Assembly (NCBI GenBank): GCA_964524845.1
Contig: CAZGFX010000002.1
Coordinates: 157,422 to 221,421, forward strand
Length of the DNA stretch: 64,000 bases
Direction of reading: 5' to 3'
Source: an uncultured Gammaproteobacteria bacterium
Lineage (GTDB): Bacteria > Patescibacteriota > Patescibacteriia > CAZGFX01
The notes beneath the pieces were generated by a model, which did not search any database, had not been told where the DNA came from, and was given only the letters and a program-made list of their open reading frames with translations. Shown in pieces: positions 12,990-55,651 of the stretch (position 1 is the stretch's first letter; every line of letters begins with the position of its first letter). A program made the position numbers and the translations under genes.

Positions 12990-13032
12990 AATTAAAATGA
13001 AAACGCCATGCTGTTCACTAACAACATGGCGT
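12990..13032 (-). terminator. intrinsic terminator downstream of the OM-barrel gene
   Basis: ACGCCATG...CATGGCGT 8-bp stem (13003-13032); minus-strand U-tract TTTTCATTTTAATT follows. Confidence 0.55.
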
Positions 13033-13046
13033 ATTTTAATAATTTC

Positions 13047-14117
13047 TTAATATCGCACCCCTATGCTGAGTTGCAAGGGATTTGCGGTCATTTCAGTCTT
13101 TGTGAACCCGCCGACATAGTATCCGGCGGAAAAGTCCATCCTTTCGTTGATGGTAAAACCCATCCCGAAAGTTAAGCGTGTTCTACCTCCTGCGGCTTCT
13201 GTCTCCGTATAGAGTCCTATACGAGTGCTAAACACCCTTTCTTCTCCATACAGGGTTTCAAAGCCTATGCTATGTCCGGTATACCGCAATGGCTTTTTCG
13301 TATGAGGCTTGAGTAGTAAAAGCGATACATCGTAATGCATACGAGTCATCGTATTTTCACTCTCAAATATAGGCATAATACCTCCAATATGCGCGGTCAC
13401 AGGAAGCGCATCATGAACACCTTTTTGGTAGGACAATCCTTTACCAAAATACATGTTCATAACACTTGCGCCGACTGCGTACCGGCCCTCATCAAAAACA
13501 CCGATAAGGCCGACATCAAACGCGAATGCGTCAGATGGTCCAACGCCTCGAAACTCATCGCCTCGAGTATCAGAAACTTTTTTAGAGAAAAGCTCAGAAT
13601 ATAGATACTTGGCTCCTAGGCCAAATGACCAATACTCATTAAACTTGATCCCAGCTGTCGTATGAAATATCATTTCATACTGTCGCCAAGTTCCAAGTTC
13701 GTCTCCGGCTTCGTTCAATATGTCGCTCTCACCAAGATCGAGATATTGAAAGCCATATCCAATGGAAATAGGATAAGCCATGTTTTGAGGAGTCCATGTA
13801 CCGTAAACACTCCCCATCCACATATCAAATCCCATTGCAGGATTAATACGCGAATAATTGAGATCGGCAGTGTTAAAAAAATCGCCTCTCTCAGTCGTAC
13901 GAAAAGCGTTTGCACCGAAGTGAGCTGGATTGAAATAAAATCCAGCACTTCTAGCATCGCTGTAAGCAACACCACCCATGCCCATACTTGAAACACGCGG
14001 GTCGGGAATGAGTTGCAGTACGGGCGCCGATGCAACACTTTGCGCAGACAAAACAGACACAAAGGTGCAATTTAAAAAAATTGCAGAAATTGTAAAAAGA
14101 ACAAAAAACATTTTCAT
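13047..14117 (-). CDS. FadL/OmpP1/PorV-family outer-membrane beta-barrel protein
   Basis: 356 aa; signal peptide; mature N-terminus PVLQLIPDPRVSSMGMGGVAYSDARSAGFYFNPAHF parallels the FadL hatch (FQLNE..SGLGRAYSGEGAIADDA..NPAL, NPA motif); alternating amphipathic strands; C-terminal beta-signal ...LQLSIGVRY ending in an aromatic residue. GC is about 45-50% against about 34% in neighbours. Confidence 0.7.
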   Translation of the reverse strand: MKMFFVLFTISAIFLNCTFVSVLSAQSVASAPVLQLIPDPRVSSMGMGGVAYSDARSAGFYFNPAHFGANAFRTTERGDFFNTADLNYSRINPAMGFDMWMGSVYGTWTPQNMAYPISIGYGFQYLDLGESDILNEAGDELGTWRQYEMIFHTTAGIKFNEYWSFGLGAKYLYSELFSKKVSDTRGDEFRGVGPSDAFAFDVGLIGVFDEGRYAVGASVMNMYFGKGLSYQKGVHDALPVTAHIGGIMPIFESENTMTRMHYDVSLLLLKPHTKKPLRYTGHSIGFETLYGEERVFSTRIGLYTETEAAGGRTRLTFGMGFTINERMDFSAGYYVGGFTKTEMTANPLQLSIGVRY

Positions 14118-14240
14118 TTTTTCATCTCCTTGCCATGCAAAATGCAGTGGCTTTTTAATTTGTTTGATTTATTTTTTAATTTGTTTATCATCACATCTTA
14201 AAACAAAATAATGATTTTGTCAACAAACTGTGCATAACCA

Positions 14241-14288
14241 AAAATACAACAAAAAAACCACGTTTTCAAGCCAAAAACATGGTTTTTT
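14241..14288 (-). terminator. hairpin plus U-tract terminator downstream of the acidic-protein gene
   Basis: AAAAAACCACG / CATGGTTTTTT arms (one mismatch), followed on the minus strand by TTTTTTTGTTGTATTTTT. Confidence 0.4.
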
Positions 14289-14305: not shown

Positions 14306-14692
14306 TTAAATATCCTCCTCTTCTAAATCTTTTGATTCTTTTGAAATTGATATCTTTTCAACAGATGTGATTCTTTCATCGATATATCCTAACGCTTGTT
14401 CTATCTCTTTTTCCAATCCATGCGGAAAAGCATCGTGCTGATAAAGATGATTCACCGCTTCCCACGCGACAATAGGAGCTGGTTTTTCAGCCACATTCAC
14501 ATTCTCAGTAACCCAATCTAGAAGTTCCTCTGCGTTCGACTCAATGTTTCTGCTCGTATAAAAACTATCCCAATCATAATTTTCTATCACCTGATTTACA
14601 AATTCGGCAATATCCTCTTCTTCGTCATACGGCGGAATGGAGCTAAGATCTTTTATATCAAACTCTTCTTGAACATCTTCGTCTAACATCAT
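14306..14692 (-). CDS. acidic hypothetical protein (128 aa)
   Basis: ORF with strong acidic bias (EEFDIKD...DEEEDIAEF); no recognisable family. Confidence 0.45.
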   Translation of the reverse strand: MMLDEDVQEEFDIKDLSSIPPYDEEEDIAEFVNQVIENYDWDSFYTSRNIESNAEELLDWVTENVNVAEKPAPIVAWEAVNHLYQHDAFPHGLEKEIEQALGYIDERITSVEKISISKESKDLEEEDI

Positions 14693-18019: not shown

Positions 18020-20590
18020 CTATATCGAAAAACCTAATCTATCAGCCACCTCATGATCAACAATTTCTTTCGGCCTACCATATTTGAAACGAGAAAGTTC
18101 TCGGAGAGCTTTTACAAGTTCAGGATTACCACTTTGTGGAGGATAAATTATCATATTAAAAGGATTTGTTGGAACACTATTTATAAGTGTTTTTATATTA
18201 ATTGTATAAGCATCAGGATTCATCAGGTCATATGCAGTAAATATAGGATCGAATTCTTTTGCAATTTCTTCAGCATCCTCGACTCCAATACGATACACAC
18301 CCATCGTACCAACGTTTCCGAAAACAGCATCTTTTATCTTCGTGTCATTGCCTTTTATAAGCTGGGCTAAATATTGATGCGCAATAATTAATCCTAGCTT
18401 GTATTTTCTAGCTTCTGACAAAATAACACCTATACTATCTGTAACGAAATTTTGAAATTCATCCATATAAAGATAAAAATCTTTTCGCTCGCTTTCAGAC
18501 ATACTCGCACGAGATAGTGCAACCATTTGCAACTTACTTACCAATATCAAACCAAGAAGTGCCATATTAGCATCTCCTATCTTTCCTTTTGAAAGAGATA
18601 CGAGAAGAATTTTCTTTTCATTCATTATTTGTTCAAAATTAAAAGAACTTTTGCGCTGGCCAATTACATTGCGCATAATTTTGTTTGTAACGAAAGGCCC
18701 AAACTTCGAACTGAAGTATGGAATCATTTCTTGTTTTTCTCTATCTCCTGTCTGTGCATACTCGTTCTCCCAAAAATCCCTTACAGCAGGATTTTTAACA
18801 TTTTTTGTGTGTTCTTCCGTAAATTTTGGATCAGTGAAAAGACGCGGAATATCAATAAGCGTAGCTCCATATTCAGGATTTTCCATAAGAGTCAAGCATC
18901 CGTTTCGAAAATAATGTTGTAAACGAGGTGAGAATATTTCTTCTCCAAAAATTTTAATGAATATCTGTGTTGCTTCAAGCGCCGCCATATCAGCTTCGGC
19001 AGGAGAATTAATATCAAGCAAATTCAAAGACATCGGTCTATCTAGATCAGCTGGATCGAATACTATTACATCATCTGCTCTTTCTTTTGGAATATTTGCC
19101 AGAATACCATCAATAAGATCTCCGTGCGGGTCAACAACACAAACACCATTTCCGTTTCTTATATCTTGTATGACAAGGTTCTGCAAAAGAACAGACTTTC
19201 CTGTGCCTGATTTTCCTATAAAATACATGTGTCGCATTCTATCTTTATTATCTATGCGTATTGGAATGTCTTTACCCTGATATTCAACATGCCCCAACAA
19301 AATACCTTCGTTTGGAATATTTGAAGGTGGTGGTGGTTTTTTACCTTGCATCCACTCTATTGCAGGAACATCGTTGTTTGGAAGAGGAAAATGAAACAAT
19401 GTTGCCATCTCTTCAACATTTACAATTAATTTAAAATGTTCATCAAATCTGCGATGAATAAAATCAGACACGAACTGTCTTGACGACCCCATTGTAATCG
19501 CCTGAAACATATTTCCATACTGATAAATCGCATATTGGGAAAACGCATTAATAATATTCTGAAGATGAGCATCAACACTTCCCTCCGCAGTACCCGAAAC
19601 GACCACGCGAACATTGAGATCAAGTCCTGCTTTTGATGATTTTTCTTGTATATTTTTCGCCATCTCTTGTTCTTGTTGCGACAGGCTTATGGATTTCTGT
19701 CCTTCAAGTTGTGGAGAAAGAGACGAAGGAGTAAGAACATCCCCGAGTTTTCCGGTAATTTTTACGAACGAATCAACTCCCGTCTTACCGATTCCCGCAT
19801 CACGCATCGCCTGATCAATTCTTTTCCCCTGACTCATCTCACGTGCTACCTTATCACCTGAATTATGCCAAGATTTATGAGCAGAACGCATTATAAACTG
19901 AATTGCAGCTCCTTCGTTTTTTGGATTAAGTCTCGCAATTCCACTAACAATCGTCGTAAGAGGATCAGCCTCCATCTTCTTGTAAGACTTTATTGGAAAT
20001 ATATATGACTGTGAAAGTTTAAGATAAGCGCCTTTCACGATTGAGTCCGGACGAAATATATTATAATCAGTTACATCTTCAACGCGCGCATCAGGATATG
20101 TCGCATGAATATTTTCTTCTATATATGACTTCAAATTTGCCGGAACTACAAAATAAAAATTAATTCGCCCGTGATTCATAACAATTTCACACGCAACCGT
20201 ATCCTCACGACCAAAAAACCTTGATTTCCAACTGATCTTTGGTTTAAGTCCTCCTATACTTAAAAACAACATTTCTGCATAAGCGATGGAATCCTGCATA
20301 AATTGAGCACTATCCTGATTTTGCGCTTCAGAATATTTTTGCAGAGTTATTTTCATCACAATATTCGTCATGCCATATTTCTTTTTGTATTTACGACGAA
20401 CAATTATTTGAACAATGATTATCAAAATCATGATGACAATCAATAATCCAATTCCTATAAGTACCCACATAATCATTGGGTTATTTGCCCAATACCAAAA
20501 CAATCCTGACTCATCAGCATAAACACCGCTTGATAAAGATGGTGTCGTTGGTTTACCTAATGGAGTAATTGCAAAAATAGTCCAAAACAT
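18020..20590 (-). CDS. membrane-anchored VirD4/TraG/TraD-like (type IV coupling protein / HerA-FtsK-like) P-loop ATPase
   Basis: 856 aa; N-terminal TM (MIMWVLIGIGLLIVIMILIIIVQIIV), Walker A YFIGKSGTGKSVLLQNLVIQD, Walker B-like FYLYMDEFQNF, arginine-finger-like region toward the C-terminus. Confidence 0.55.
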   Translation of the reverse strand: MFWTIFAITPLGKPTTPSLSSGVYADESGLFWYWANNPMIMWVLIGIGLLIVIMILIIIVQIIVRRKYKKKYGMTNIVMKITLQKYSEAQNQDSAQFMQDSIAYAEMLFLSIGGLKPKISWKSRFFGREDTVACEIVMNHGRINFYFVVPANLKSYIEENIHATYPDARVEDVTDYNIFRPDSIVKGAYLKLSQSYIFPIKSYKKMEADPLTTIVSGIARLNPKNEGAAIQFIMRSAHKSWHNSGDKVAREMSQGKRIDQAMRDAGIGKTGVDSFVKITGKLGDVLTPSSLSPQLEGQKSISLSQQEQEMAKNIQEKSSKAGLDLNVRVVVSGTAEGSVDAHLQNIINAFSQYAIYQYGNMFQAITMGSSRQFVSDFIHRRFDEHFKLIVNVEEMATLFHFPLPNNDVPAIEWMQGKKPPPPSNIPNEGILLGHVEYQGKDIPIRIDNKDRMRHMYFIGKSGTGKSVLLQNLVIQDIRNGNGVCVVDPHGDLIDGILANIPKERADDVIVFDPADLDRPMSLNLLDINSPAEADMAALEATQIFIKIFGEEIFSPRLQHYFRNGCLTLMENPEYGATLIDIPRLFTDPKFTEEHTKNVKNPAVRDFWENEYAQTGDREKQEMIPYFSSKFGPFVTNKIMRNVIGQRKSSFNFEQIMNEKKILLVSLSKGKIGDANMALLGLILVSKLQMVALSRASMSESERKDFYLYMDEFQNFVTDSIGVILSEARKYKLGLIIAHQYLAQLIKGNDTKIKDAVFGNVGTMGVYRIGVEDAEEIAKEFDPIFTAYDLMNPDAYTINIKTLINSVPTNPFNMIIYPPQSGNPELVKALRELSRFKYGRPKEIVDHEVADRLGFSI

Positions 20591-24618: not shown

Positions 24619-25167
24619 ATGGCTTTGAATACCGCTTGTCTATCACAAACAACTTCTGAAAGTCCTGTAAAAATCGAGATTACAGACAAATGGATATATC
24701 AATGGAGAGAGTTGTTTGGAACATTAACTCCAATAGAAGCTATTATTCTAACTTGGCACATAATGGTGCCTGACAAGGTGTGGACACATGATAAATTAAA
24801 AGAAATTGTGTTCAAAATTAAAATAAACAGAAGACTTCCGACAGGATTTTCAAATGATTTTCTACATCAAAAAGAACATTATAAAATAACGGAACATCAT
24901 ATTATTCCACGTTCACGCGGAGGAAGTAATTATCATAGTAATATAGTTGGCCTTGATAAGCTTTTTCATCATTTATGGCACATTGTATTTATTAATATGA
25001 CACCGGAAGAAGCAATGCGATATATTAGAGCAAACAGAACAATAATAGCTAATTACACTTTTAAAAAACATTGTGAAGAAACGACAGAGGAGTTTCCTGA
25101 AAAATATCTAAAAAAATCTCATTTACAAATCATTCATACTGGGAAACATGGTCATTCTGAAAAATAA
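24619..25167 (+). CDS. HNH endonuclease-domain protein
   Basis: AAGGAGG SD 6 nt upstream; HHIIPRSRGGSNYHSNIVGLDKLFHHLWH matches HNH (H-H...N...H...H). Confidence 0.55.
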   Translation: MALNTACLSQTTSESPVKIEITDKWIYQWRELFGTLTPIEAIILTWHIMVPDKVWTHDKLKEIVFKIKINRRLPTGFSNDFLHQKEHYKITEHHIIPRSRGGSNYHSNIVGLDKLFHHLWHIVFINMTPEEAMRYIRANRTIIANYTFKKHCEETTEEFPEKYLKKSHLQIIHTGKHGHSEK

Positions 25168-31041: not shown

Positions 31042-31230
31042 ATTAAAATATATTACTTATTCACGTACTGGATTATGGCTTATTTTACAATAAAAGTGAA
31101 GTCCTGATTCTTTTTTTTCCATATATTTATACACTTTAAATTAATATGAAAAACAAAACAATCAAAAAAAGCGAATAAAAGCCAAAAAGATGAGGATTTT
31201 TAAGTTTTCCACACATAATAAACAATAGAC

Positions 31231-31259
31231 TTGACTTTTTAGGAAGGATGATGTATGCT
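31231..31259 (+). promoter_or_regulatory. near-consensus sigma70-type promoter TTGACT-17-TATGCT
   Basis: TTGACT at 31231-31236, exact 17-nt spacer, TATGCT at 31254-31259; predicted TSS about 31266. No protein gene lies downstream on this strand. Confidence 0.5.
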
Positions 31260-31341
31260 GTTAACACTTGCTTAATGCGAGATTAAATAACTGAAACAAG
31301 AACAATTAGAAATCCGTTGTAAACGGAGAAGGAGCACGCAA

Positions 31342-31398
31342 ATGGCAAGAGCATCCCCGCTCAATAAAATGAGCAGAACGTCCTTTGAAGAGAAGTAA
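31342..31398 (+). CDS. micro-ORF MARASPLNKMSRTSFEEK (18 aa) with GAAGGAG SD, 7-nt spacer
   Basis: gaGAAGGAGcacgcaaATG; codons verified to TAA at 31396-31398. Confidence 0.25.
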   Translation: MARASPLNKMSRTSFEEK

Positions 31399-31823
31399 CC
31401 CGGCCCGCGACCGCACGCCAGCCATAACCCGAAAAACTCGGTCGGCTGTCTGAGCAGCGGTCAAATCGGGAACGCGCCCGCAATCCAATTTGTATAATGA
31501 AAAAATTGGGCGCACTCCCGGCTCGAAAAAAAATCCGCAAAACAATGATCGCGGAACAAAAAGTCCGGAAAAACTCCGGCACGATGAAAAACAACAAGAA
31601 AAACGGGGATTCAGAAATGAAATTAGATCACGGCTAGATTTAGGGGCAAAAGAAAAGCCCCGAAAAAAGCTTCGAAAAGAGGCATAAACCGGAGATTATT
31701 TTAAAAAAACAACACAAACCTCTCCGGGAAAAAAATCCGGCAAACCGGCAATCATATGCGGCACCAAAAACCATGGAGGCTACAGTGAAAATGAGATACG
31801 GTTGAATGCAATAAATTACATAT

Positions 31824-31862
31824 AAGTCCTTGTTATAATGACAAGGACTTTTCCGTTTTTTT
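31824..31862 (+). terminator. strong intrinsic terminator (AAGTCCTTGT-tataatg-ACAAGGACTT plus TTCCGTTTTTTT)
   Basis: 10-bp perfect stem at 31824-31850, U-rich tail 31851-31862. Confidence 0.8.
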
Positions 31863-31982
31863 AATAACAAACATTGATATTTTTATATTTTTATATACAA
31901 TTAACACAGCCTGCTTGACAGGTACAAATAACCTAAATAACCGAACAAGAGCAGTCTTTGATGACTGTAAGGAGCGTGTATC

Positions 31983-32033
31983 ATGGTTAAGATCAGAGGT
32001 CAGACGTCTTATCTTAAGATGTCGAAAGCGTGA
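31983..32033 (+). CDS. micro-ORF MVKIRGQTSYLKMSKA (16 aa), TAAGGAG SD, 8-nt spacer
   Basis: gtAAGGAGcgtgtatcATG; stop TGA at 32031-32033. Confidence 0.25.
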   Translation: MVKIRGQTSYLKMSKA

Positions 32034-32122
32034 AAGCGAAAAGAAAAAGGCCGCTGTTTCTCCTCGTTTATCAGCATGATTTTGCTGAAACCACGGAAAA
32101 AAAACATGGAAGGAGGTTCATT

Positions 32123-32170
32123 ATGAACCGCATCCGTGCCCAAAACAACCTGCATCAAAAAATGATGTAA
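32123..32170 (+). CDS. micro-ORF MNRIRAQNNLHQKMM (15 aa), GGAAGGAGGT SD, 5-nt spacer
   Basis: catgGAAGGAGGttcattATG; stop TAA at 32168-32170. N-terminus M-x-[KR]-I-R-[GA]-Q is shared with the previous micro-ORF. Confidence 0.25.
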   Translation: MNRIRAQNNLHQKMM

Positions 32171-32293
32171 GCGCCAAAAAAGCAAGGTCTCACCCAAGAA
32201 GTACTGGTCACTCCATTTATCGCAACAAATTAAGCGCGGTATAGAAGCGTGCCAAGAAAAACTTGGAAATAAAAACATGAAAGGAGTTTCAAA

Positions 32294-32314
32294 ATGAAAC
32301 GAAATTATGGCTAA
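32294..32314 (+). CDS. micro-ORF MKRNYG (6 aa), AAAGGAG SD, 7-nt spacer
   Basis: catgAAAGGAGtttcaaaATG; the upstream context aaaaacatgRAAGGAG repeats that of the previous micro-ORF. Confidence 0.15.
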   Translation: MKRNYG

Positions 32315-32380
32315 CCCTTCTCACAAAGACAAAAGGTTTTGTCAAAACTCGAGAGCGAGAACGATATAATAATTATAAGA

Positions 32381-32411
32381 CCCCACCCGAAGAGGTGGGG
32401 CATTTTTTATT
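32381..32411 (+). terminator. intrinsic terminator (CCCCACC-cgaaga-GGTGGGG plus CATTTTTTATT)
   Basis: 7-bp all-GC stem at 32381-32400 with U-tract. Confidence 0.75.
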
Positions 32412-32565
32412 GAAAAATAAACAATATTAAAAAATAATTTAAAATAGCATTTTTAAATCGATAAATATTGCACCAAACCCATATTGACAAATACATCATC
32501 AAGTCGAAACAAATTAACAATACTCACACAAACATAAATATTATTCATTCGTTTCTCATTTCAAT

Positions 32566-32592
32566 AAAAAATGCCCCGGTTTTTAACCGAGG
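32566..32592 (-). terminator. terminator downstream of the subtilisin gene
   Basis: Minus strand GCCTCGGTT-aaaa-AACCGGGGC (8/9 bp) followed by ATTTTTTATT. Confidence 0.5.
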
Positions 32593-32611
32593 CAATAATA
32601 GTCTACGCATT

Positions 32612-34096
32612 TCATTTTACGATTGTGAGTTTTTTTGAGACAGGTTTCATGTGTTCAGACTGAAGTCTATATATATATATTCCTGAACTGACCGCATGAC
32701 CATCATCGTTTCTACCATCCCATGTGATGAAGTGTCTTCCCGGATACTGATATGCATCAAAAAAAGTTCTGACCTTCTGTCCGAGTGTATTATATAGAAT
32801 TACAGTGGTACGACCAGGTCGACTGATTACATACTCGATCGTAGTTGATACATTGAACGGATTAGGATAGTTCTGATTGAGTTCCACAGATGGTTTTTGA
32901 AATGATCCCCTCTCTGGAAATATCGCTTCAAAAATTTTTGGCAATGACACAGCATTCTGGCTACCACCATCTTTATCAAGCGCAATGTTTCCGTTTTCTC
33001 TTATAATGTTTTTTATATCAATATTCTTTCCTGTCATAATCATAAGAGCAACGATTCCTGCAACTTGCGGGGCGGCATAACTCGTACCATCAACCCTGTG
33101 ATATCTAGAACCACACCATGTGGTCAGTACCTTGTTTCCAGGAGCAAACGCATCAACACTACCGAAATTAGACCAGTAAGAAACAGTTCCTACGGAATCG
33201 AGACTTCCTACTGATATGACGGATTTGTATCCGTTCGTTGAAATACGACCAAAATTCGTATAATGAGCTGGAAATACGGACATGTTCCATCCTTCGTTTC
33301 CGGAAGAGCACACGAAATAAATCTGAATTCCTGCAGAATCCGCTTTTTGTTCAGCGGTACGAATTAATTCTTCCCACGCCATAAGATCAAATTTTAAACC
33401 AAGACTCCAATTGATAACAAGATTTTTCTTGTTTTGAACAGCCCACAGAATTCGATCGTTTGCGGCAATAAGGATTGTACTTACATATCCATATCCATTG
33501 TCTTCGAGCACTCGCACCGCATACACATCTCCACAAGAAATACCGAATACTCCTTTTTTATTGTTCGCAGTAGCGCCGACAATGCCGGCTATTTCCGTAC
33601 CATGAACAAAAACCTCTTTCGGAACATACTCCATGGAATCTCCGTGTAGAACAGTATAGTTTTTCCCAAGTTTTATATTCTGAAGATCTTGATGTTCAAT
33701 TACCCACTTATCAGATCGTCGAACAAGTTCAATTCCGGAGTCATGAATATCAATCACAGTGTTTGACGGATCCAAAAGGTCGCCGTACTTTTGAAATACT
33801 GAAAAGAGTTCCATGTATTCAATAGCCCAGCTTCGCAATGGATCATTCGGATCAAACCGATATTGAGTTTTGTTTGACCCATATGCGGTCACCAAAGCAT
33901 CTTCTTCAATAACCTCAACTGAAGTGGTTTTTAAAAAAGATTTTGTCTCAACCTTGTACCAACTTCCAAACACATGCACCGCATTATTTGGAATATCTTT
34001 TTCGTTTTTCATCTTTATCAGATATCCTTGAGAATATCCTGAAAAAGAAATCAAAAAAGAAAAAGCAATCGTAATAATTACTTGAAATGTTCTCAT
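32612..34096 (-). CDS. secreted subtilisin-like (S8) serine protease with type IX secretion system C-terminal sorting domain
   Basis: Signal peptide; HGTEIAGIVGA (His box), GTSYAAPQVAGIVALM (Ser box); C-terminal 85 aa LNQNYPNPFNVSTTIEYVISRPGRTTVILYNTLGQKVRTFFDAY...ITWDGRNDDGHAVSSGIYIYRLQSEHMKPVSKKLTIVK is the Por_Secre_tail/T9SS type-A CTD pattern (NYPNPFN...G-Y-Y-L...KK-L-K). Confidence 0.85.
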   Translation of the reverse strand: MRTFQVIITIAFSFLISFSGYSQGYLIKMKNEKDIPNNAVHVFGSWYKVETKSFLKTTSVEVIEEDALVTAYGSNKTQYRFDPNDPLRSWAIEYMELFSVFQKYGDLLDPSNTVIDIHDSGIELVRRSDKWVIEHQDLQNIKLGKNYTVLHGDSMEYVPKEVFVHGTEIAGIVGATANNKKGVFGISCGDVYAVRVLEDNGYGYVSTILIAANDRILWAVQNKKNLVINWSLGLKFDLMAWEELIRTAEQKADSAGIQIYFVCSSGNEGWNMSVFPAHYTNFGRISTNGYKSVISVGSLDSVGTVSYWSNFGSVDAFAPGNKVLTTWCGSRYHRVDGTSYAAPQVAGIVALMIMTGKNIDIKNIIRENGNIALDKDGGSQNAVSLPKIFEAIFPERGSFQKPSVELNQNYPNPFNVSTTIEYVISRPGRTTVILYNTLGQKVRTFFDAYQYPGRHFITWDGRNDDGHAVSSGIYIYRLQSEHMKPVSKKLTIVK

Positions 34097-34285
34097 TTTT
34101 TCCTCCTTTTTTTCAGTCAGATTCGTCTATTTTCTTTTTAGAGAAAATGGCTCTTGGCTGAATTTTTTAATATTTTGTTTATTAATTCTATATTAACACA
34201 CAAATATCAAAATGTCAAACAAAATTGCTTGAATTCTACCATGAAATACAGTATAGGAGTTCTAAAAAAAACCATTTTAAAAACC

Positions 34286-41750: not shown

Positions 41751-44700
41751 TTATTGGTTTTCTACCATACTTACATCTGTTCCCGTTTCGCTCGTAGGAG
41801 TTGTTTCGCCTGATGATGTTGTGGTCACAGGAGTTGAAACAGGTTGATCAACAATAACTGGAGAAGCTGGGGTTTCCGGAATAGGCTCACTTGTTTCTAT
41901 TATCTCCGCAAGCGAATCTGTTGGTGGTGTTGGATTGTTTATATATATTGGTACGTTTGGATTTATCGTATCGCGATTAATCTGATCTGTACCCACTTCG
42001 AATGCGAGCCATGTCACATCAACAAACTTCGCACAACCAGGTTCAGTCGCGACATCACACACGGGCTCTGACATCTCTATATCAAAACCTTCTTCGGTTT
42101 GATTACTTACCCATACGCGTCCTTTCCACGATCTAGCAGTATCAGGATCTTCAAACTTCGGCGTCAATGAAACAAGAACCTCATTTTTTTTCGGTGCGAC
42201 AAATGCAATATGTTGTGTTATTTGATTATATGAAAATCTAACAGACCCTGCCACATCTTTTGAAACAACCGAGAGACCACCTTTCAATTCAAGATTCTTT
42301 TCAAGTGTTACTGCATCCCGTACGACAAGTGTTCCTTGTATTTCAACATTTCCTTTCACGACAAGATCTTTTTCAAATACCGCTTTTTCTTTCACAACAA
42401 GAGCACCCGTCAAAGACATTATTGCAACATCAATTTGTAAACCATCTCCCAAAGACCATTTATTGTATTGAGGATTAATGTCTTCAACAATATTTTGTAC
42501 GTTAGGATCTGGTGTTTGCTGAACATCGCTTGGATCAATATAGACTCCTTGTATATCTCCTGCGCTAGGCTGTACCTGAACATCATCATCGCCTTCGACT
42601 ACTTCTTCGTCATCAAAAACAAGACTTAAACCATATAATTCATCAGTCGTGGCCATTCCAATCCAATATTGCGGTTGAACAAAAACAATAACTGAATTAG
42701 TACTTGGTTCAATACCCGAACTCCATCCGCTCATCGCCTGTCCGACAACGAATCCAGGACCGGTTGCTTTGATAGCATATCCTGGCATATCAGGAGATGA
42801 AGATAGATAATCACCAGTCACAATATCAGCAGAATGATTTATATCAATCTTCACAGGTACTCGACCGACAAGCACGACAAGTTTTGAAGACTGATCGTCA
42901 GAAGTTGTTTCAAGTGTTGTGTTTGGATGTTCCGTAACAACTCCGATAACACTCTTACCAGATGTACGAGTTGCTTTAACAACCGACTCCGAATCAGACG
43001 GATCAATTGAAACCAAATCTCCTTGTTCTATTGATAAATCACCAACTTGATAATACTTAGCGAGATCAAATACTTGTCTATTAAGTTCATTTAAAGCACC
43101 GACAATTGATGTTGATGTGAATGTCCCATCAAGTTTCGTATTTGTATCATCCGCAAGCGCGATTGGTGATTCTGTGTGTGAATCAGCAAGTCCGTTTCCT
43201 ACATTTACGGTATCAGTCACTACTATATTTTTCGCAGTGAGTGTTCCTGCTCCGTTTGTTGAAATCAGCCCTCCGTCTGATGAGAATGATCCGATGGTAA
43301 GCGTACCACCAGAAATTCCGCTAGTTACAGCTAAATTATTGACCGATAGTGTTCCTAGTCCGTTTGATGTAATAAGACCATTATCAGATGAAAATGAGTT
43401 TGTTTTTATTGTGCCTGTTGTAATATTTCCCAAACCATCTGATTGTATTACTCCTCCGTCAGACGAAATTTTTGGCAATGAAAGCGCAAGCGTTCCGTTC
43501 ATAAGAGGATCGAGAATATTTGTTTTTGTTTTTTGCATCTCTTTGAGAAGCAACACGGATAGAATTTCATAATGAACGGAATCTGGGCGACCCTGATTAT
43601 CGAAAAACACAAGCTGAGGAAGAACTTCCGCTGCTTCTTCCGCAATCAAACCAAATGTCCTATTCTCTGGTAGATCAGGAAGCTCGTTTGGCGTATAACT
43701 TACTGGTCTCAAATCAAATATTTTCGATGTATCAGTTTCTATATCTGTAATACTCTTTTTATATCGTCGTGATGATGTATATTTAAATAATTGATTACTA
43801 CCATTTATATGAATAGCAGTACCTGCCGTACCACTCGAAGGAAGTCCATCAAAAGCAACTGTACTACTAGCATAAAAAGATCCTTCTATTTCTGTATAAC
43901 CCAAAAACGAATCTCCATTAACAAAAAAATCATTATCAGCTTCCAATCTTCCACCATAAAAATAGGCATCCCCATCTGAGGTAATAGAAAATCTGTTCAC
44001 ACTGTTTGTTTCTATATTAAAATCATTTGGGCCTGAGTTGGAATAAACTAAAACATTAGTATCGGAAAAAGCTATCTGTGGATCCTCGCTAGTAAGAAAA
44101 AGACTTCTATTCATATCTATGGAAGATCCGATTGTTATATTACTATCATCCGGGTCACCTAATATTAATTCGCGACCACTATATGAGACTGTAAGTGCCG
44201 TACCAGTCCAAGCACCACCATCACCTGACATAGACATTTTAAACTTACTAATATTAGGTGCAGAAGTATCAATACCCATAGAAACAGTATCATCGCCTGA
44301 TTTAAACATTAAAGTAGCATCCCCGGTACCCATTTGTTCTATTTTCAACATTGGTGTTGTTTCGGTACTGTTTTCATATATATGAAAATTTGCACTTGGT
44401 GCATTTGTGCCTAATCCAAATCTAATACTCGTTCCATTATAACCAGTATATCTAATATAAGAGTCTTCAAAATATCCTAATTTCATCTCTAAAGAATCAT
44501 CGTAAATTCCAGATAAATTTACCGATCCATCGCTAGGCATTACTCTAAAAAAACCATAAGAATTATCAAAAGTTGGCGGGTAAGATCCATCATTAAAACC
44601 TATAACAAAATCGTCATAAGATGTCGAACTATCAATACCCATTACATAATGTCCTGATGAAGACGATGTGTCAGAAACAAATCCAATTGCCGGATCTCCT

Positions 44701-47700
44701 GTACCAGCTTGTTGCAACATAAGCATAGGAGTTGTCTGTGTAGAGTTTTCATACAAGTGAAGATTCGTACTTGGAGTAGCAAAACCAAGTCCTATATTTC
44801 CACTCGAATCAATAACAAACCTATCACTTGTTCCAAGTCCTGTCGTGCTTATTTTAAACTTATCACTATCAGAATCATCTACGCCCATGGTAAATGAATT
44901 CGTTCCTTCAGCAAGTTGAAACCCAATCGCAGTATCATAATCACCTGCATTTGTGTTTACAACAAAAACATTTGTGTTTATAGCAGATGAAGATGCTACA
45001 TCAAGCATTGCATCTGGCGACGTATCACCTATACCCATATATCCATTACTGTTTATACGCATTCTTTCATAAAGATCACCATTAAGTGATGTTTGCAATG
45101 AAAAATAACTGTCTCGTGTCGAAGCGGTATCGTTCCACGCACCCTCAGTCCCAACGATAATTCGCGCCGACCCATCAACTCCTGGATCATCCACGGATCC
45201 TGAAAACCACTGATTAAACAAAACTCCTGTCTGTGTATTAGAAGAAGCTTGTCTTGTGTTCGTTATCTCAATAAAATCTGTAAGACCTCCATCAGTTCCC
45301 GTTTGTTCTATATCAAGAAGTGACGATGGTGGATATAATGGATTAGAAAAAGCTCCTACTCCAACAAGTCCGCCACTTGTTACAGATAAACGACGTGTTC
45401 CTGCTGTCGTGAGATCAATGGTATCTGCTCCAGATGAGTATACACCAGTATTTGTATCTCCAACAAAAGATATTGAAGGATTTCCTACTGCACCCAGAGG
45501 ATGATAAGCGTATCCACTTGAATTAACTTGAAACAAATCCCCACTACCGACTGTGAAGAGTGACGCAGGAGACGAATCTCCTATACCAACATATCCTGCA
45601 TTATCAACACGCATAGCTTCAATCATGCTTCCTGTATTTCTTACATTAAAACGCATCGACGAGACACCAGAATTAACACCCGCACTCTCCCAAACAGTAT
45701 CTATACTTCCGGCTTCAAGTCCCATACCATCATTATCCTCAAGATATGTGACAATTCCAGACCCAAGTCCTGTATTATCCATTGATGGACGAGTTACGTT
45801 CATAGTCAGTGTATCAATCACAGTGGCTGTGGTATTTGCTTTTGACAAATGAAGAATACTAGAAGGAGTATTCGTTCCTATTCCTATATTTCCACTCGAA
45901 TCAATTACAAACCTATCGTTTGTACCAAGCGCTGTTGTAGATATTTTAAACTTATCAGAATCAGAATCATCAATACCCATAGTAAAAGTATTTGTTCCAT
46001 CAGCGAGTTCAAAACCTATTTGAGAATCGTAATTTCCTGCATTCGTATTTGAAATTGTAAACTGAGTATTTGCTGCACCTGATGACATAATTTCAAGAAG
46101 TTGATCTGGTGTTATGTCTCCTACACCAACGTTTCCTCCATAAAGAAGTGTCATAACAGTGTTTGAAAGCGTCTGCCCATTAGTTGTGCCAGAAGAAAAA
46201 GCCAGATCGTTTGTATTCTGTTTGTGTATTGTCCAATCACCATATCCTCCTCCTTGATTATCAAATGTCAACCAGTTATATACACTTGAGTTTGCTTGAT
46301 TACTAGAAATAGTAAACTTACTATAAGATGTTGCCGTAGTACCAACACTTATGTTTCCAGAAGAATTAATCGTCATACGATTTGTTCCTCCTGTAGCAAA
46401 ATCTAGGGCATCTGCTCCTGATGAGTATATACCAGTGTTCGGATCACTGACAAAAGACACCGACGGTGTTCCTACTGCTCCGAGAGGATAAAGCGCATAT
46501 CCACTTGAATTAACCTGAAACAAATCTCCATTTCCGACTGTGAGAAGTGATGCTGGTGTCGCATCACCAATACCAACATTTGCGCTTAATATGTTCACAT
46601 AATCTGTCGCTTGATCATCGAATGCTATTCGTCCGGCAATTGATCCAAGACCCAACCAATCATCGTCTGCATTCGCATCAGAAAAAGCATCACCAGAAGT
46701 CATAGAACCAACAGATGTTACATCACCTGTTCCAGCAGATACCCATGTTAAATTTCCACTTCCATCGTTTCGAAGAACTGTATTTGATGAACCCTGAGAA
46801 CCAGGCCACGAGTATGTTACATTATTAACTTTTACGATGTTTCCGGATGAGTTGACTTGAAACAAATCACCATCTCCAACAGTAAATAAAGACGCTGGCG
46901 TTGCGTCACCAACACCAAGGTTTGCGCTCATTATATTTACATAATCGGTGGCCTGATCATCAAACGCAACTCGTCCAGCACTTGCTCCAAGTCCGAGCCA
47001 ATCATCATCAGCATTCGCATCCATAAAAACATCCCCTCCTGTCATAGAACCGACTGTTGTAATATCTCCTGTTCCTGAACCCGTAACCCATGTGAGTGTT
47101 CCGCTTCCATTATTGCTTAATACAGTACCTGCACCTCCTTGTGCTGACGGCCACGAGTATGTAACATTATTAACTTTTACGAGGTTTCCTGATGAGTTTA
47201 CTTGAAATGTATCTCCGCTACCTACTGTAAGAAGAGATGCTGGTGTCGTCTCTCCAATACCGACGTTCGCACTCAAAATATTTACATAATCGGTAGCCTG
47301 ATCATCAAAAGTAATACGTCCAGCAGCTGCTCCAAGTCCAAGCCAATCATCATCAGCATTCGCATCCATAAAAACATCTCCCGATGTCATAGAACCAACC
47401 GTAGTTATATCACCAGTTCCTGAAACGGTAACCCAGGTAAGATTACCACTTCCATCGTTTCTTAAGTATGTGTTTGATGCTCCCTGAGAAGCTGGCCACG
47501 AATATGAAACATTATTTACTTTTACAAGATTACCGTATGAGTTAACTTGAAATAAGTCTCCGTTTCCAACTGTGAAAAGAGATGTCGGTGAAGAATCTCC
47601 TATACCAATATATCCTTCATAACTAATTCTAAAAGCCTCTGACATTGAGCTGTTATTCATGTGATTAAATATTACAGAGGCTTTTTCTCTTGTTTCACGA

Positions 47701-50700
47701 GGATCCTCCCACACGACATCAATTCCAGCCGCCTGAGACAAACCATCTTGATCGTTTTCCAAATAAAATCCAATGCTGGCACCGAGTCCTTGAGCACCAG
47801 AACTATCATAATTTATTCTCTCTATACGTAACGCCTCCATAATATCAGACGCATCATTCTGAGAAAGAACCGAGAGTGTAGAAGCCGGAGTACTTGTACC
47901 AACACCAAGCCTATTATTTGTATCATCCCAGAATAGATTTGAATTATCTTGAGTGTACACACCACTTCCCCCAGCAAATACAAGTGAGCCCGATGTAAAT
48001 TGAGTACCGGTTCCTGTACCGCCTCTTGTAACATTTAAATATTGTTCTGATGTTAATGAGTTTGTTCCATTCCAATACGCTATATATCCGTTTGTTCCTG
48101 TTCCTGTTGCAACAGTTCCTGATGTTGGAAGCGTAATACTTGTAGCTCCTGATGTTGTAAAAAATAGCGTGTTCCCTGCAGTACCAAGAGGAACAACACC
48201 GGTATTATCTTGAAAAGTTATCGTCTTATCAGATACTGTTGGATCTGTTATAGCAAATGTTGTTTCGTATGTGTTGTCTGTTGCTCCTTCAAAAACCAGA
48301 GGAGAGGCACCTTGAATAACACCTCCGAGAGTCAGTGCATTAGAAGCGTTTCCGATCGATACAGCACCAGTTGATGTCCCTGTGTTTATATTTGTAGTAA
48401 AGTTTGAACTTGCATTTATAGAAGACGTTGCTCCTGACACAGTAAGTCCTCCTGTTCCTTGTATAACTCCTGTTGTTGAGTTAACACCAACAAAAGATGC
48501 TGCACCAGCACCTGAAACAGACCATTGTCCATCTGTAATAACAACATTTGCTGATGCATTTCCTATTGTAACCGTCCCCGTTGATGTACCGGTGTTTATG
48601 TTTGTAGCAAAATTTGAACCATGATTAATATATACAGTGTTTCCTGAAGTTACAAAAGAACCAGTGTTTGTAATACCCCGAACAGAAACTATTGCACCAG
48701 ATGAATTTACTTGAAACAAGTCTCCATTTCCTACAGTAAACAAAGAATCCGGAGATGAATCACCCACACCAACGTTTCCTCCATTAAAAACAGCAGAATA
48801 TGTGTTGTCACGACTATTTGCAGTATCAGTATCAACATATAAACCTGTAATTGTGTTTCTATATCCTCCAAAATCATCGTCTATGTTTATATGCATACCA
48901 TACACGGTGTCCACATAATCCTCGTTTTGTGGATTGTTTGAAATATTTAATTTATATCCATATAGTGTAGCAATATCACTTGGATTCATTGTTACATTAT
49001 GAGAAATACTTGAGGAAGCATCGGTTTGTAGATCTAAAGAGGTCAAACTAAGAACGGGATTTGTTACATCGCTTGACGAAATAGATATTGTATCATCTGT
49101 AATAGATGGCGAAAGGTTTGTTCCTGATCTGGTCCAATATCCCAGCGTTCCTGTTGATGGTGGTGTTGTAGTAAGATACCCTGAAGAATCAGTATATACA
49201 CCACTTTCCGTACCGAGCGAATTAAATAAAATATTTCCTGATGATGCTAAACCAGTGAGACCTGATGCGACACCGGCTGACGACACGTCCCACGATGATG
49301 TGTTTATAGCGAGCGTGTTTGATCCACCACCGATTGATACGGCGCCGGTTGATGTTCCTGTATTTATGTTTGTCGCGAAATTAGAACTTGCGTTCAATGA
49401 TACTGCTCCACCCGAGCTTGTCACTGCTCCAGTGTTTGTAATTCCTTGAACAGATGCTATTGCGCCAGATGAGTTGACTTGAAAAAGATCTCCGTTCCCT
49501 ACTGTGAAAAGAGATGCAGGAGTTGTATCTCCGATACCAATATTTCCTGCAGGAGTGATATTTAAAAATTCGTTCGTTCCTTCTAGAATACGCAAATTAC
49601 CTTCGCTTGACCCATCTGTTTCTTGTATACCGATTTTCCAATCGCGAGCAGTCGTTGTTTCGGCTGCGGTTGAATATACATGAAGCGATGATGGTCCTAA
49701 ATATAAATCTCTCCAACGCAAAGAAGACGATCCGAGATCATAAGAATCATCACTGTTTGGTCCAACTGATCCGGCAACTTGTAATTTAAATGTCGATGGT
49801 GCACTTGTGCCAACACCAACGTTTCCACTACTATTAACATATAAACTATTTACAGATGCGCCATCCTCAATTACAAAAACATTGATACTACCTCCTGTCG
49901 TATCTTGAATTCTAAAATCATCGTTTGCATTCACACCCATTTTCCATTGCCTAGCATCATTAATAAAATCAAAATCAGCAGCTCCATTAAGACCTGTATT
50001 TTCTATTCTTCCTGCAATATAACTTCCGGCCGCTGATCCAGAAACATGCAATCTTTGTTGAGGACTAGCAGTCCCGATCCCAAGCCTATTATTCGTATCA
50101 TCCCAAAAAAGGTTTGTATTATCTTGTGAGTACACTCCGCTTCCTCCAGCAAACACTAGTGATCCTGAAGTAAACTCAGTACCTGTACCGGTACCACCAC
50201 GTCCAACAGAAAGGTATTGTTCTGATGTTAATGAGTTTGTTCCATTCCAATACGCGACGTATCCATTTGTACCAGTTCCTGTTGCCATGGTTCCTGATGT
50301 TGGAAGAGTTATGCTTGTTGCTCCTGATGTTGTAAAAAATAGTGTGTTCCCTGCAGTGCCAAGAGGAACAACACCGGTATTATCTTGAAATGTTATTGTC
50401 TTATCAGATGCAGTGGTATCAGTGATTGAAAATGTAGTCTCATAAGTATCGTCTGTAGCTCCTTCAAACACAAGAGGAGAAGCACCCTGAATAATACCTC
50501 CTAGAGTTAATGCATTAGAAGAGTTTCCAATTGATACAGCTCCTGTTGATGTGCCTGTGTTTATATTTGTCGCAAAATTAGAATTTTCGTTGATAGATGA
50601 CGAGGCACCAGACACAGTAAGTCCTCCTGTTCCTTGTATAAGTCCTGTGGTTGAATTAACACCGACAAACGAAGCTGCACCAGCACCTGAAACAGACCAT

Positions 50701-54554: not shown

Positions 54555-54557
54555 ATA

Positions 54558-55634: not shown

Positions 55635-55651
55635 GATCTATATATATAATA

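What the first reader, a model, noticed from the sequence alone, without database searches (positions are those of the whole stretch)
32612..34096. Subtilisin (S8) protease carrying a canonical type IX secretion C-terminal sorting domain
The last 85 residues (NQNYPNPFN...WDG...SGIYIYRL...KKLTIVK) are a textbook T9SS type-A CTD. This tag is only useful with the Por machinery (PorK/L/M/N, SprA, PorU/PorV), otherwise known from Bacteroidota and allies. The gene has native-looking low GC, so it is not a recent import. Either this lineage has a T9SS-like export route (and an outer membrane) or the CTD has been co-opted.
Basis: partly seen in the sequence, partly recalled or inferred. Interest (0 to 1): 0.55.

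Follow-up and report, generated by a model that had tools for sequence, protein, structure and literature searches.

The report
T9SS-tagged protease in probable CPR bacterium
A secreted subtilisin-type protease carries a genuine Bacteroidota-style "type IX secretion" sorting tag, and the same contig also encodes a stripped-down PorV, the outer-membrane carrier that reads such tags, yet the surrounding genes point to a Patescibacteria/CPR bacterium, a group thought to have no outer membrane.

Summary
ORF 32612-34096 (-) encodes a 494-aa pre-pro-subtilisin (S8; D119/H165/S339) ending in a type-A T9SS C-terminal domain. TIGR04183 scores 32.7 against a cutoff of 23. Pfam PF18962 is just below its gathering score, and FlgD_ig is above. 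All the motifs are present, and the tail models as a β-sandwich.

New here: 18.5 kb away, 13047-14117 (-) encodes a very divergent PorV/PorQ-family protein (NF033709 114.5 against 90). Its model best matches solved PorV (TM 0.72-0.75). A 91%-identical copy in another metagenome shows signs of purifying selection.

SecA similarity and shared neighbouring genes, with SD-poor leaders and a lack of metabolic genes as supporting signs, place the contig with Patescibacteria (probable, not proven).

Both T9SS-type genes differ from their neighbours. Each has a strong SD (only 4 of 28 genes do), its own promoter-like site and terminator, and atypical codon usage; PorV-like is the most atypical of 37 genes. 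Their only relatives carrying a taxon name are FCB-group bacteria. So they look imported or specially expressed, not "native".

About 88 kb contains no other T9SS component and no second CTD. The PorV-like barrel has shortened two loops; one contacts the translocon in Flavobacterium.

Best reading: a reduced CTD-PorV module. The genome-wide T9SS check could not be run.

The parts
32612..34096 (-). Complete ORF of 494 aa plus stop: pre-pro-subtilisin with a C-terminal T9SS type-A sorting domain
   Evidence: the public gene call P0001 starts at Met29 and cuts off the signal peptide
34028..34096 (-). Sec signal peptide, aa 1-23 (MRTFQVIITIAFSFLISFSGYS|Q); the predicted cleavage would expose an N-terminal Gln
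   Evidence: read from the sequence; no signal-peptide predictor was available
33767..34027 (-). N-terminal pro-region, aa 24-110. It begins GYLIKMK and includes VEVIEEDALVTA, resembling an I9-type propeptide. It is poorly modelled and has no Pfam hit.
   Evidence: inference from sequence only
33035..33763 (-). Peptidase S8 catalytic domain, aa 112-354; triad D119, H165, S339; oxyanion N267
32615..32869 (-). Type-A CTD, aa 410-494: NYPNPFN, LGQKV, WDG, SGIYIYRL, and the C-terminal SKKLTIVK with a Lys near the end
34102..34108 (-). Shine-Dalgarno AAGGAGG, 5 nt before the ATG; rare in this window (4 of 28 genes)
34190..34218 (-). Promoter-like site TTGACA-17-TAATAT with an extended-10 TG
   Evidence: consensus match only
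32572..32594 (-). Terminator-like hairpin (10 bp stem) plus T-run, 18 nt after the stop codon
13047..14117 (-). PorV/PorQ-family 14-strand outer-membrane-type β-barrel, 356 aa. It has a signal peptide ending ..LSA|QS and a C-terminal β-signal-like ..LQLSIGVRY. Extracellular loop L5 and periplasmic turn T3 are shortened.
14126..14131 (-). Shine-Dalgarno AAGGAG of the PorV-like gene
14195..14223 (-). Promoter-like site TTGACA-17-TAAGAT upstream of the PorV-like gene, preceded by a terminator-like hairpin at 14252-14288
13003..13032 (-). Terminator-like hairpin (13 bp stem) directly after the PorV-like stop codon

Best explanation
The gene encodes a working secreted subtilisin. Its signal peptide takes it across the cytoplasmic membrane through Sec. 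It has a short pro-region, an intact D-H-S catalytic domain and a genuine type-A T9SS C-terminal domain.

The host genome is most probably a Patescibacteria/CPR bacterium of a class that is barely sampled. The same contig carries a second T9SS-type gene, a highly divergent but structurally authentic PorV-family β-barrel. PorV is the carrier that binds type-A CTDs.

Both genes look like imports from T9SS-bearing (FCB-type) bacteria that have been kept. Each is a self-contained unit of promoter, strong SD, gene and terminator with non-native codon usage.

The mechanism I think most likely is a reduced T9SS-like step. After Sec export, the folded CTD is captured by the loops of the PorV-like barrel, and the protease is held at, or released from, the cell surface. 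This would happen without the SprA-Skp docking features of Flavobacterium PorV and without an adjacent PorU.

Shown: the domains, the folds, co-residence on one contig, conservation of the PorV-like gene in a second strain, and the atypical gene signals. Inferred: that the two proteins interact, that the barrel sits in an outer-membrane-like layer, and that the host is CPR.
For: CTD identity.

Active-site motifs and Sec signal.

PorV-like family membership: NF033709 114.5 against 90, and PF19572 28.7 against 27.

PorV-like fold: AF2 pLDDT 81.8 and pTM 0.82. The best PDB matches are the PorV chains 8gl6_F and 6h3i_F (TM 0.72-0.75), against about 0.55 for FadL. All 22 family-invariant residues are kept.

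Selection: a 91%-identical copy in JGI metagenome 3300075153 has the same hyp128->PorV order and no indels or stops. Substitutions are concentrated in the signal peptide (9 of 26 positions, against 24 of 330 in the mature protein; Fisher p = 1.7e-4).

CTD-PorV logic: type-A CTD motifs specify a fold that PorV loops wrap around, and a near-C-terminal Lys contacts PorV (PMC10994853, PMC12398890). That Lys is present here (SKKLTIVK).

Reduced form: L5 is 12 aa against a family median of 45 (minimum 19). T3 is 4 aa against 10, and it aligns to FjoPorV 193-199, the SkpA contact. There is no PorU, SprA or Gld component and no second CTD in about 88 kb.

Foreign or special status: SD on only 4 of 28 genes, including both of these. 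PorV-like has the worst codon fit of 37 genes and the protease the 4th worst. Each has its own promoter-like site and terminator.

Host: SecA identities and tree; SerRS/LysRS/SecA neighbourhood shared with Patescibacteria loci; low SD usage similar to those loci; no metabolic genes among about 70 genes.

Not a chimera: the same linkages appear in the NCBI 309,728-bp contig and in the Logan assemblies of SRR12133403 and SRR12133404.
Against: A β-barrel with a BAM-type C-terminal signal needs an outer membrane and an insertion machine. Patescibacteria are proposed to lack an outer membrane (PMC12102498; PMC8871954 notes that few have been examined), and no outer-membrane biogenesis gene is seen in the 88 kb.

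In Flavobacterium, more than half of the buried CTD surface is contributed by SprA rather than PorV (PMC10994853). PorV alone may therefore bind weakly, and the loop most shortened here could be one of those that bind the CTD.

The barrel does not reach the PorV equivalog cutoff (75 against 250). It could be a FadL-like channel unrelated to CTDs.

The two genes are 18.5 kb apart and not in an operon. The protease was not found in the second strain's metagenome.

Atypical codon usage plus a strong SD can also mean high expression rather than transfer.

The CPR assignment rests mainly on one marker, and the comparison set was sampled by shared 8-mers.
Confidence: 0.45

Rival explanations
1. Orphan tag. 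The protease simply leaves the cell through Sec, as in any single-membrane bacterium. The CTD is an inherited passenger, unused or co-opted as a generic Ig-like binding or stability domain. The PorV-like barrel does something unrelated, such as FadL-type uptake of hydrophobic molecules.
For: About 88 kb contains no SprA, PorU, PorQ, PorZ or GldK-N, and no second CTD protein, even among at least 10 large surface proteins. A genuine T9SS organism shows 4-5 CTD proteins in 22 kb and a PorU-PorV-cargo operon. The PorV-like protein fails the PorV equivalog cutoff, has lost loop L5, and is not linked to the protease. The tail scores higher on FlgD_ig than on Pfam Por_Secre_tail.
Against: The CTD is the best-conserved part of the protein relative to its homologs (40-58% identity, against at most 31% for the S8 domain), with every motif and the functional Lys intact. 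An unused tag in a fast-evolving genome should decay. Two rare T9SS-type genes on one contig of a non-FCB genome, both carrying the same unusual expression signals, is an unlikely coincidence. The best structural match is PorV rather than FadL.
Confidence: 0.28
2. Ordinary T9SS in an unrecognised two-membrane bacterium. The contig is not from a CPR bacterium but from a small-genome diderm lineage that carries a complete T9SS and outer-membrane biogenesis genes elsewhere in its genome. The protease would then be routine cargo.
For: The PorV-like protein keeps a signal peptide, a terminal-aromatic β-signal and all family-invariant residues, and is under selection. That is what one expects if an outer membrane and BAM exist. 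SecA places the window only as sister to the sampled Patescibacteria, not inside them. Only about 88 kb of the genome was visible.
Against: SecA is as close to Saccharibacteria as Paceibacterota is, and 10 points closer than to Bacilli or Pirellulales. The SerRS/LysRS/SecA neighbourhood is shared only with Patescibacteria loci. About 70 genes include no outer-membrane, LPS, Lol, Tol or TonB gene and no metabolic gene. Surface proteins carry peptidoglycan-binding modules (PG_binding_1, LysM, WxLIP_PGBD) rather than CTDs. The PorV-like protein is at most 32% identical to anything among 1.84 billion representatives and is the compositional outlier of the window. Neither would be expected for a core native gene.
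Confidence: 0.2
3. Assembly or binning artefact: T9SS genes from a co-occurring FCB bacterium were joined to CPR DNA.
For: Both genes have atypical codon usage and have relatives only in FCB-type bacteria.
Against: Each gene is embedded between housekeeping genes on one contig (Tgt-protease-GlyRS; DnaX-hyp128-PorV-MurB-HPF-SecA). The same junctions recur in independent assemblies: the NCBI 309,728-bp contig, the Logan assemblies of SRR12133403 and SRR12133404, and a JGI contig from a 91%-identical strain. GC differs from the flanks by only 2-7 points, and no donor-like sequence above 32% (PorV) or 31% (S8) identity exists.
Confidence: 0.03

Closest known systems
T9SS type-A CTD cargo proteases of Bacteroidota/FCB bacteria: S8 subtilases with a Por_Secre_tail, e.g. 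mirolase of Tannerella forsythia (recalled from memory, not tested here). More generally, the 'S8 family serine peptidase / T9SS type A sorting domain' proteins found.
   Same: The architecture is the same: signal peptide, pro-region, S8 domain, linker and an ~85-aa type-A CTD. The CTD motifs, the near-C-terminal Lys and the β-sandwich fold all match.
   Different: The catalytic domain is only 27-31% identical to the nearest S8+CTD proteins. The host genome is probably Patescibacteria, not FCB. No SprA, PorU or Gld genes are nearby, and it is the only CTD protein in about 88 kb.
PorV (LptO), the T9SS outer-membrane carrier for type-A cargo; solved in the F. johnsoniae SprA-PorV complexes 6H3I and 8GL6
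   Same: FadL-like 14-strand barrel with an N-terminal plug segment, best structural match TM 0.72-0.75. All family-invariant residues are kept. Six of the seven extracellular loops and four of the six periplasmic turns are within 1-2 residues of the family's typical length.
   Different: It scores 75 bits against the 250-bit PorV equivalog cutoff. It is at most 32% identical to any known protein. Extracellular loop L5 is cut from about 45 to 12 residues. The periplasmic loop that contacts SkpA in Flavobacterium is cut from about 10 to 4 residues (PMC10994853). It is not next to porU, unlike its relative in L062.
FlgD Ig-like domain (PF13860)
   Same: The tail passes this Pfam model (33.9 against 27), and by sequence its best PDB matches are FlgD chains (E about 0.01). 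It has the same β-sandwich and WDG...G.Y core.
   Different: It sits at the extreme C-terminus of a secreted protease, has the NYPNPFN and KK..L.K motifs that FlgD lacks, passes TIGR04183, and its 2,388 relatives are C-terminal tails of diverse secreted proteins. No flagellar genes are present.
FadL/TodX-type hydrophobic-substrate channels, and the PorV-family paralogs of unknown role such as Treponema UPF0164
   Same: Same barrel superfamily; the closest relative, P0123, also weakly hits UPF0164.
   Different: The structural match to FadL is clearly weaker (TM about 0.55), and the sequence profile match is to PorV/PorQ.

Membership tests
T9SS type-A C-terminal sorting domain (TIGR04183 / PF18962) | Score above the curated cutoff of NCBIfam TIGR04183 | tested here: met
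   32.7 bits against a cutoff of 23; aa 410-491 cover profile positions 2-70 of 72
T9SS type-A C-terminal sorting domain (TIGR04183 / PF18962) | Score above the Pfam PF18962 gathering threshold | tested here: not met
   21.8 bits against 27 (E 2.4e-4), full-length match 2-75 of 75. The related FlgD_ig model passes at 33.9 against 27.
T9SS type-A C-terminal sorting domain (TIGR04183 / PF18962) | Located at the extreme C-terminus, about 70-100 aa, with the conserved motifs and the near-invariant C-terminal Lys | tested here: met
   The domain ends at the stop codon. NYPNPFN, G439, V442, G453 and SG.Y.Y are invariant or nearly so in A3. SKKLTIVK contains the Lys described in PMC10994853.
T9SS type-A C-terminal sorting domain (TIGR04183 / PF18962) | Ig-like β-sandwich fold | tested here: met
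   The AF2 model has 6-7 strands over aa 418-492 with pLDDT about 74-90. No separate fold search of the domain was possible.
T9SS type-A C-terminal sorting domain (TIGR04183 / PF18962) | N-terminal Sec signal peptide on the same protein | tested here: met
   MRTFQVIITIAFSFLISFSGYS|Q, preceded by a strong SD. Judged by eye; no predictor was available.
T9SS type-A C-terminal sorting domain (TIGR04183 / PF18962) | Genome encodes the T9SS core (SprA/Sov, GldK/L/M/N, PorU, PorV and others) | tested here: inconclusive
   Only a PorV/PorQ-family gene was found in about 88 kb (window plus L057 plus L064). No other component was found with Pfam, NCBIfam or tblastn with a genuine PorU.
T9SS type-A C-terminal sorting domain (TIGR04183 / PF18962) | Secretion depends on the CTD, and the CTD is removed by PorU | not testable with these tools
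   Needs genetics or proteomics
Peptidase S8 (subtilase) | Pfam PF00082 above its cutoff, and catalytic Asp-His-Ser in that order with the oxyanion Asn | tested here: met
   93.1 bits against 21.8. D119 (HDSG), H165 (HGTE), N267 (SGNEG) and S339 (GTSYA) align to 1dbi and other subtilases.
PorV/PorQ family (NF033709, PF19572) | Score above the curated family cutoffs | tested here: met
   NF033709 114.5 against 90, full length; PF19572 28.7 against 27
PorV proper (NF033710 equivalog) | Score above the equivalog cutoff | tested here: not met
   75.2 bits against 250; PorQ 29.2 against 220
PorV proper (NF033710 equivalog) | 14-strand FadL-like barrel closest to solved PorV | tested here: met
   pLDDT 81.8; 8gl6_F TM 0.75 and 6h3i_F TM 0.72, against about 0.55 for FadL
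PorV proper (NF033710 equivalog) | Long extracellular loops that enter SprA and wrap the CTD, and the periplasmic loop that contacts Skp | tested here: inconclusive
   L1-L4, L6 and L7 are family-length. L5 is 12 aa against a median of 45 (minimum 19). T3 is 4 aa against 10 and aligns to FjoPorV 193-199. The paper does not give residue numbers for the three SprA-entering loops.
PorV proper (NF033710 equivalog) | Genomic association with porU or CTD cargo | tested here: not met
   The gene lies between dnaX/hyp128 and murB as its own transcription unit. The relative P0125 does sit in a PorU-PorV-cargo operon. The only CTD gene is 18.5 kb away.
Patescibacteria / CPR (host lineage) | Housekeeping markers group with Patescibacteria; reduced gene content | tested here: inconclusive
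   SecA motor region is 60.4% identical to Saccharibacteria/Patescibacteria against 50.6% to Bacilli, matching the figures for Paceibacterota (59.2/49.5). The NJ tree places it sister to the sampled clade. The SerRS/LysRS/SecA neighbourhood is shared. No rRNA genes or ribosomal proteins are in the window. The comparison set was limited to genomes sharing 8-mers with the query.

The most novel reading that the evidence does not exclude
A Patescibacteria/CPR lineage maintains under selection an outer-membrane-type β-barrel (a minimal PorV) together with CTD-tagged cargo. That would mean one of two things. Some CPR bacteria may possess an outer-membrane-like layer with a cut-down T9SS-type surface-delivery step. 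Alternatively, an episymbiont may deploy a PorV mimic and a CTD-tagged protease against, or within, the outer membrane of a T9SS-bearing (FCB) host. In the second case the pair would also act as a genomic pointer to the host's identity.
Probability: 0.2. Interest if true: 0.85.

Novelty: new variant of a known kind. Interest (0 to 1): 0.62.

Why it matters
A 2025 review (PMC12398890) describes T9SS cargo tags as limited to the FCB superphylum, and a 2025 study (PMC12102498) treats CPR bacteria as lacking an outer membrane. A library search found no paper linking the two.

If the host assignment holds, this contig shows that both a CTD cargo and the CTD-binding carrier crossed into a CPR genome and were kept. 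That raises a directly testable question: where does a β-barrel go in such a cell? It also offers a naturally minimised PorV, lacking loop L5 and the Skp-contact loop, for asking what PorV can do without SprA.

If the host assignment fails, the result is still a very divergent T9SS branch in a small-genome lineage. That would be of modest interest.

Tried and rejected
- An exact lookup of the 494-aa protein failed because the public gene call starts at Met29.
- The word-indexed homolog search with PorV-like found only the protein itself. The exhaustive search was needed.
- The profile search with A1 was swamped by Bacteroidota PorV.
- The genome contigs and metagenome-contig scans with SecA did not find the source genome. 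The closest relative was 60% identical over a partial match, and no relative has PorV-like or the protease near secA.
- Extending the contig by lookups added about 24 kb with no T9SS or outer-membrane genes. One edge protein could not be looked up.
- P0032 was suspected to be a second CTD protein of this genome, but it belongs to another organism.
- Rfam found nothing in the window or in the 1.57-kb gap. There are no tRNA genes, so no RNA-based taxonomy was possible.
- Solved SecA structures do not discriminate between phyla.
- No LPXTG or sortase signals were found in the surface proteins. No WxL domain was detected in the neighbours of the WxLIP gene, even at E<=1. So there is no positive monoderm marker beyond the peptidoglycan-binding modules.
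- No pseudogene remnants lie in the gaps next to either gene.
- DNA of the second PorV-like copy was unavailable, so dN/dS could not be computed.
- A literature search for the run accession found nothing.
- A contamination or chimera explanation was rejected, as set out under the rival explanations.
Full report
**1. The observation**

The ORF sits at 32612-34096 on the minus strand and encodes 494 aa. The ATG at 34096 has an AAGGAGG Shine-Dalgarno 5 nt upstream. It opens a typical signal peptide, MRTFQVIITIAFSFLISFSGYS|Q. The only database copy, P0001, is 100% identical but was called from Met29, which removes the signal peptide.

- Pfam gives Peptidase_S8 at 93.1 bits over aa 112-354.
- Alignment to solved subtilases identifies D119 (HDSG), H165 (HGTE), N267 (SGNEG) and S339 (GTSYA).
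- The last ~85 residues pass NCBIfam TIGR04183 (32.7 bits, cutoff 23) and Pfam FlgD_ig (33.9 against 27). They fall just short of Pfam Por_Secre_tail (21.8 against 27).
- 2,388 proteins match at E<=0.001, and most of the 120 best listed match only through this tail at 40-58% identity.
- An alignment with 16 S8+CTD proteins shows the NYPNPFN, LGQ.V, WDG and SGIYIYRL positions to be invariant or nearly so.
- The AF2 model gives a 6-7-strand β-sandwich with pLDDT of about 74-90.

**2. Which organism**

The window has no rRNA or tRNA genes. It encodes six aminoacyl-tRNA synthetases, SecA, MurB, DnaX, RecO, Tgt, a VirD4-like coupling protein and a 3,424-aa ORF. It also encodes a cluster of surface proteins with PG_binding_1, LysM, WxLIP_PGBD and dockerin modules. 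There are no metabolic enzymes.

A SecA scan of one genome per GTDB species returned Candidatus Saccharibacteria/Patescibacteria as the best matches (48-52% identity over the best aligned segment, which spans most of the protein), followed by Bacilli (about 44%). Over 441 well-aligned motor-domain columns the identities are:

| Sequence | To Saccharibacteria/Patescibacteria | To Bacilli-like |
|---|---|---|
| Window | 60.4% | 50.6% |
| Bona fide Paceibacterota | 59.2% | 49.5% |

Neighbour-joining trees place the window as sister to the sampled Patescibacteria, not inside Saccharibacteria.

Other evidence agrees. SerRS and LysRS lie next to SecA only in the Patescibacteria loci. Shine-Dalgarno usage is low, as in those loci: 6% against 15% for them and 40% for Bacilli, by the same crude measure.

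I rate 'Patescibacteria, unsampled class' at about 0.7. The comparison set was limited to genomes sharing exact 8-mers with the query, and only one marker could be analysed properly. Patescibacteria are proposed to lack an outer membrane (PMC12102498; PMC8871954 stresses how few have been examined).

**3. A second T9SS-type gene**

ORF 13047-14117 (-), 356 aa, passes NCBIfam PorV/PorQ family (114.5 against 90, full length) and Pfam PorV (28.7 against 27). It does not pass the PorV equivalog (75 against 250) or the PorQ equivalog.

- It is extremely divergent. An exhaustive phmmer search of 1.84 billion representatives gave only 220 hits at E<=1e-3, the best at 32% identity.
- Named relatives are PorV from Chitinophagales and a PorV/PorQ protein from Kapabacteria.
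- With a 32-sequence alignment, AF2 gives pLDDT 81.8 and pTM 0.82.
- The best PDB matches are the PorV chains of the Flavobacterium translocon (8gl6_F and 6h3i_F, TM 0.72-0.75), ahead of FadL at about 0.55.
- It keeps a signal peptide, a terminal-aromatic β-signal-like C-terminus (..LQLSIGVRY) and all 22 family-invariant residues.

A 91%-identical copy occurs in JGI metagenome 3300075153 with the same hyp128->PorV order. Its 33 substitutions include no indel or stop, and they are concentrated in the signal peptide: 9 of 26 positions, against 24 of 330 in the mature protein (Fisher p = 1.7e-4). The gene is therefore maintained, not decaying.

**4. The barrel is trimmed**

Taking strand boundaries from the model, six of the seven extracellular loops and four of the six periplasmic turns are within 1-2 residues of the family's typical length. 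The exceptions are:

- Extracellular loop L5: 12 residues, against a median of 45 and a minimum of 19.
- Periplasmic turn T3: 4 residues against 10.

T3 aligns to FjoPorV 193-199, the loop reported to contact SkpA of the extended translocon (PMC10994853). That paper also shows that three extracellular PorV loops enter SprA and wrap around the CTD. It gives no residue numbers, so whether L5 is one of them remains an inference.

**5. Both genes differ from their neighbours**

- Only 4 of 28 genes have a Shine-Dalgarno. Two of those four are the protease and PorV-like. If the four were placed at random, the chance of including both is about 0.016 (my own calculation).
- PorV-like has the highest GC (0.441), the highest GC3 (0.392) and the worst codon-usage fit of 37 genes. 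The protease has the 4th-worst fit.
- Each gene has a TTGACA-containing promoter-like site and a hairpin/T-run directly after its stop. PorV-like also follows a terminator-like hairpin.

The relatives of both genes that carry a taxon name are FCB-type bacteria (Calditrichota, Zixibacteria, KSB1 and Fidelibacterota for the CTD tail; Chitinophagales and Kapabacteria for PorV-like), and the nearest full-length S8+CTD proteins carry no taxon name. Horizontal acquisition is therefore the simplest reading. High expression could produce the same signals, so I do not treat transfer as proven.

**6. What is missing**

I read about 88 kb of this genome: the window plus flanks L057 and L064.

- Pfam and NCBIfam scans of the window's listed ORFs and the larger or unannotated flank proteins found no SprA, PorU, PorQ, PorZ, PorT, PorP or GldK-N. 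They also found no outer-membrane biogenesis gene.
- A genuine PorU used as a tblastn query hit only the protease's CTD.
- A CTD HMM built from 120 tails recovered the controls in a genuine PorU-PorV-cargo operon (L062). In these 88 kb it found only the protease, although at least ten large surface proteins are encoded there.
- For contrast, a genuine T9SS-type genome (L065) has 4-5 CTD proteins in 22 kb.

**7. Artefact excluded**

Both junction sets recur in the NCBI 309,728-bp contig, in two Logan assemblies and, for PorV-like, in the JGI contig.

**8. Interpretation**

The CTD is the best-conserved part of the protease, and the carrier that reads such tags is kept under selection on the same contig. 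I therefore favour a functional, reduced CTD-PorV module (0.45). It is ahead of an unused tag with an unrelated barrel (0.28), an ordinary T9SS in a misjudged diderm lineage (0.20) and an artefact (0.03).

The unresolved difficulty is where a β-barrel resides if the cell has no outer membrane. That conflict is the interesting part of the finding. It can only be settled with the full genome, expression data or imaging.

According to a 2025 review, CTD proteins are limited to the FCB superphylum (PMC12398890). No paper in the library links T9SS to CPR.

Noticed in passing
window 31042-32611: A 1.57-kb stretch between the protease stop and the glyS start has no credible ORF, no Rfam match and no pseudogene remnant. 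It contains two strong GC-rich hairpins: 32572-32594 (the protease terminator) and 32380-32401 (terminator-like on both strands). This is unusually long for such a compact genome.
   Followed up: partly
window, all genes (e.g. 8132-8632, 13047-14117, 24619-25167, 32612-34096): The genome is Shine-Dalgarno-poor. 24 of 28 genes have AT-rich leaders without an SD. The four with a strong SD are a GNAT acetyltransferase, the PorV-like gene, a 182-aa hypothetical with a faint IscB-like hit, and the protease. The GNAT also has atypical codon usage.
   Followed up: partly
window 41751-52025 (-): A giant 3,424-aa ORF with an N-terminal membrane anchor. Its only recognisable domain is a Peptidase_S74 intramolecular chaperone at aa 2751-2806. 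It has no CTD.
   Followed up: no
window 52240-63229 and L064 1-9632: A cluster of large secreted or surface proteins with PG_binding_1+TSP3, dockerin, WxLIP_PGBD+LysM, Calx-beta and cysteine-rich acidic repeats. The proteins at 55652-59665 and 62525-63229 share a C-terminal motif (...SQT[VI]P.SQ...SV[IV]A[NS]) that no library recognises. None has LPXTG or a CTD.
   Followed up: partly
window 18020-20590 (-): An 856-aa VirD4/TraD-like type IV coupling protein with an N-terminal membrane segment. This is consistent with the roughly two T4CP homologs per genome reported for Patescibacteria (PMC12102498).
   Followed up: no
window 3991-4635 (-): A cyclophilin-type PPIase with a lipoprotein-like signal (..FVLNTGC). 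The Flavobacterium SprA translocon contains a PPIase subunit, but here this is probably just an extracytoplasmic foldase.
   Followed up: no
window 34028-34096 and 14040-14117: Both T9SS-type proteins have signal peptides whose likely cleavage would expose an N-terminal Gln (GYS|QG; LSA|QS). This resembles the Bacteroidota 'Q-rule' (recalled from memory). Only 1 of 6 other secreted proteins inspected shows it.
   Followed up: no
window 14306-14692 (-): A 128-aa highly acidic protein immediately upstream of PorV-like. It is conserved in the same position in the JGI strain and has no family match.
   Followed up: no
L062 6169-14238: The closest PorV-like relative with usable context (P0125, 28% identity) sits in a textbook operon: PorU (Peptidase_C25, 1,267 aa), PorV, then a 1,007-aa CTD protein. 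It served as a useful positive control for what a complete arrangement looks like.
   Followed up: yes
P0001 (public gene call for window 32612-34012): The database gene model starts at Met29 and omits the signal peptide. An automated annotation would therefore miss that this protease is secreted.
   Followed up: yes
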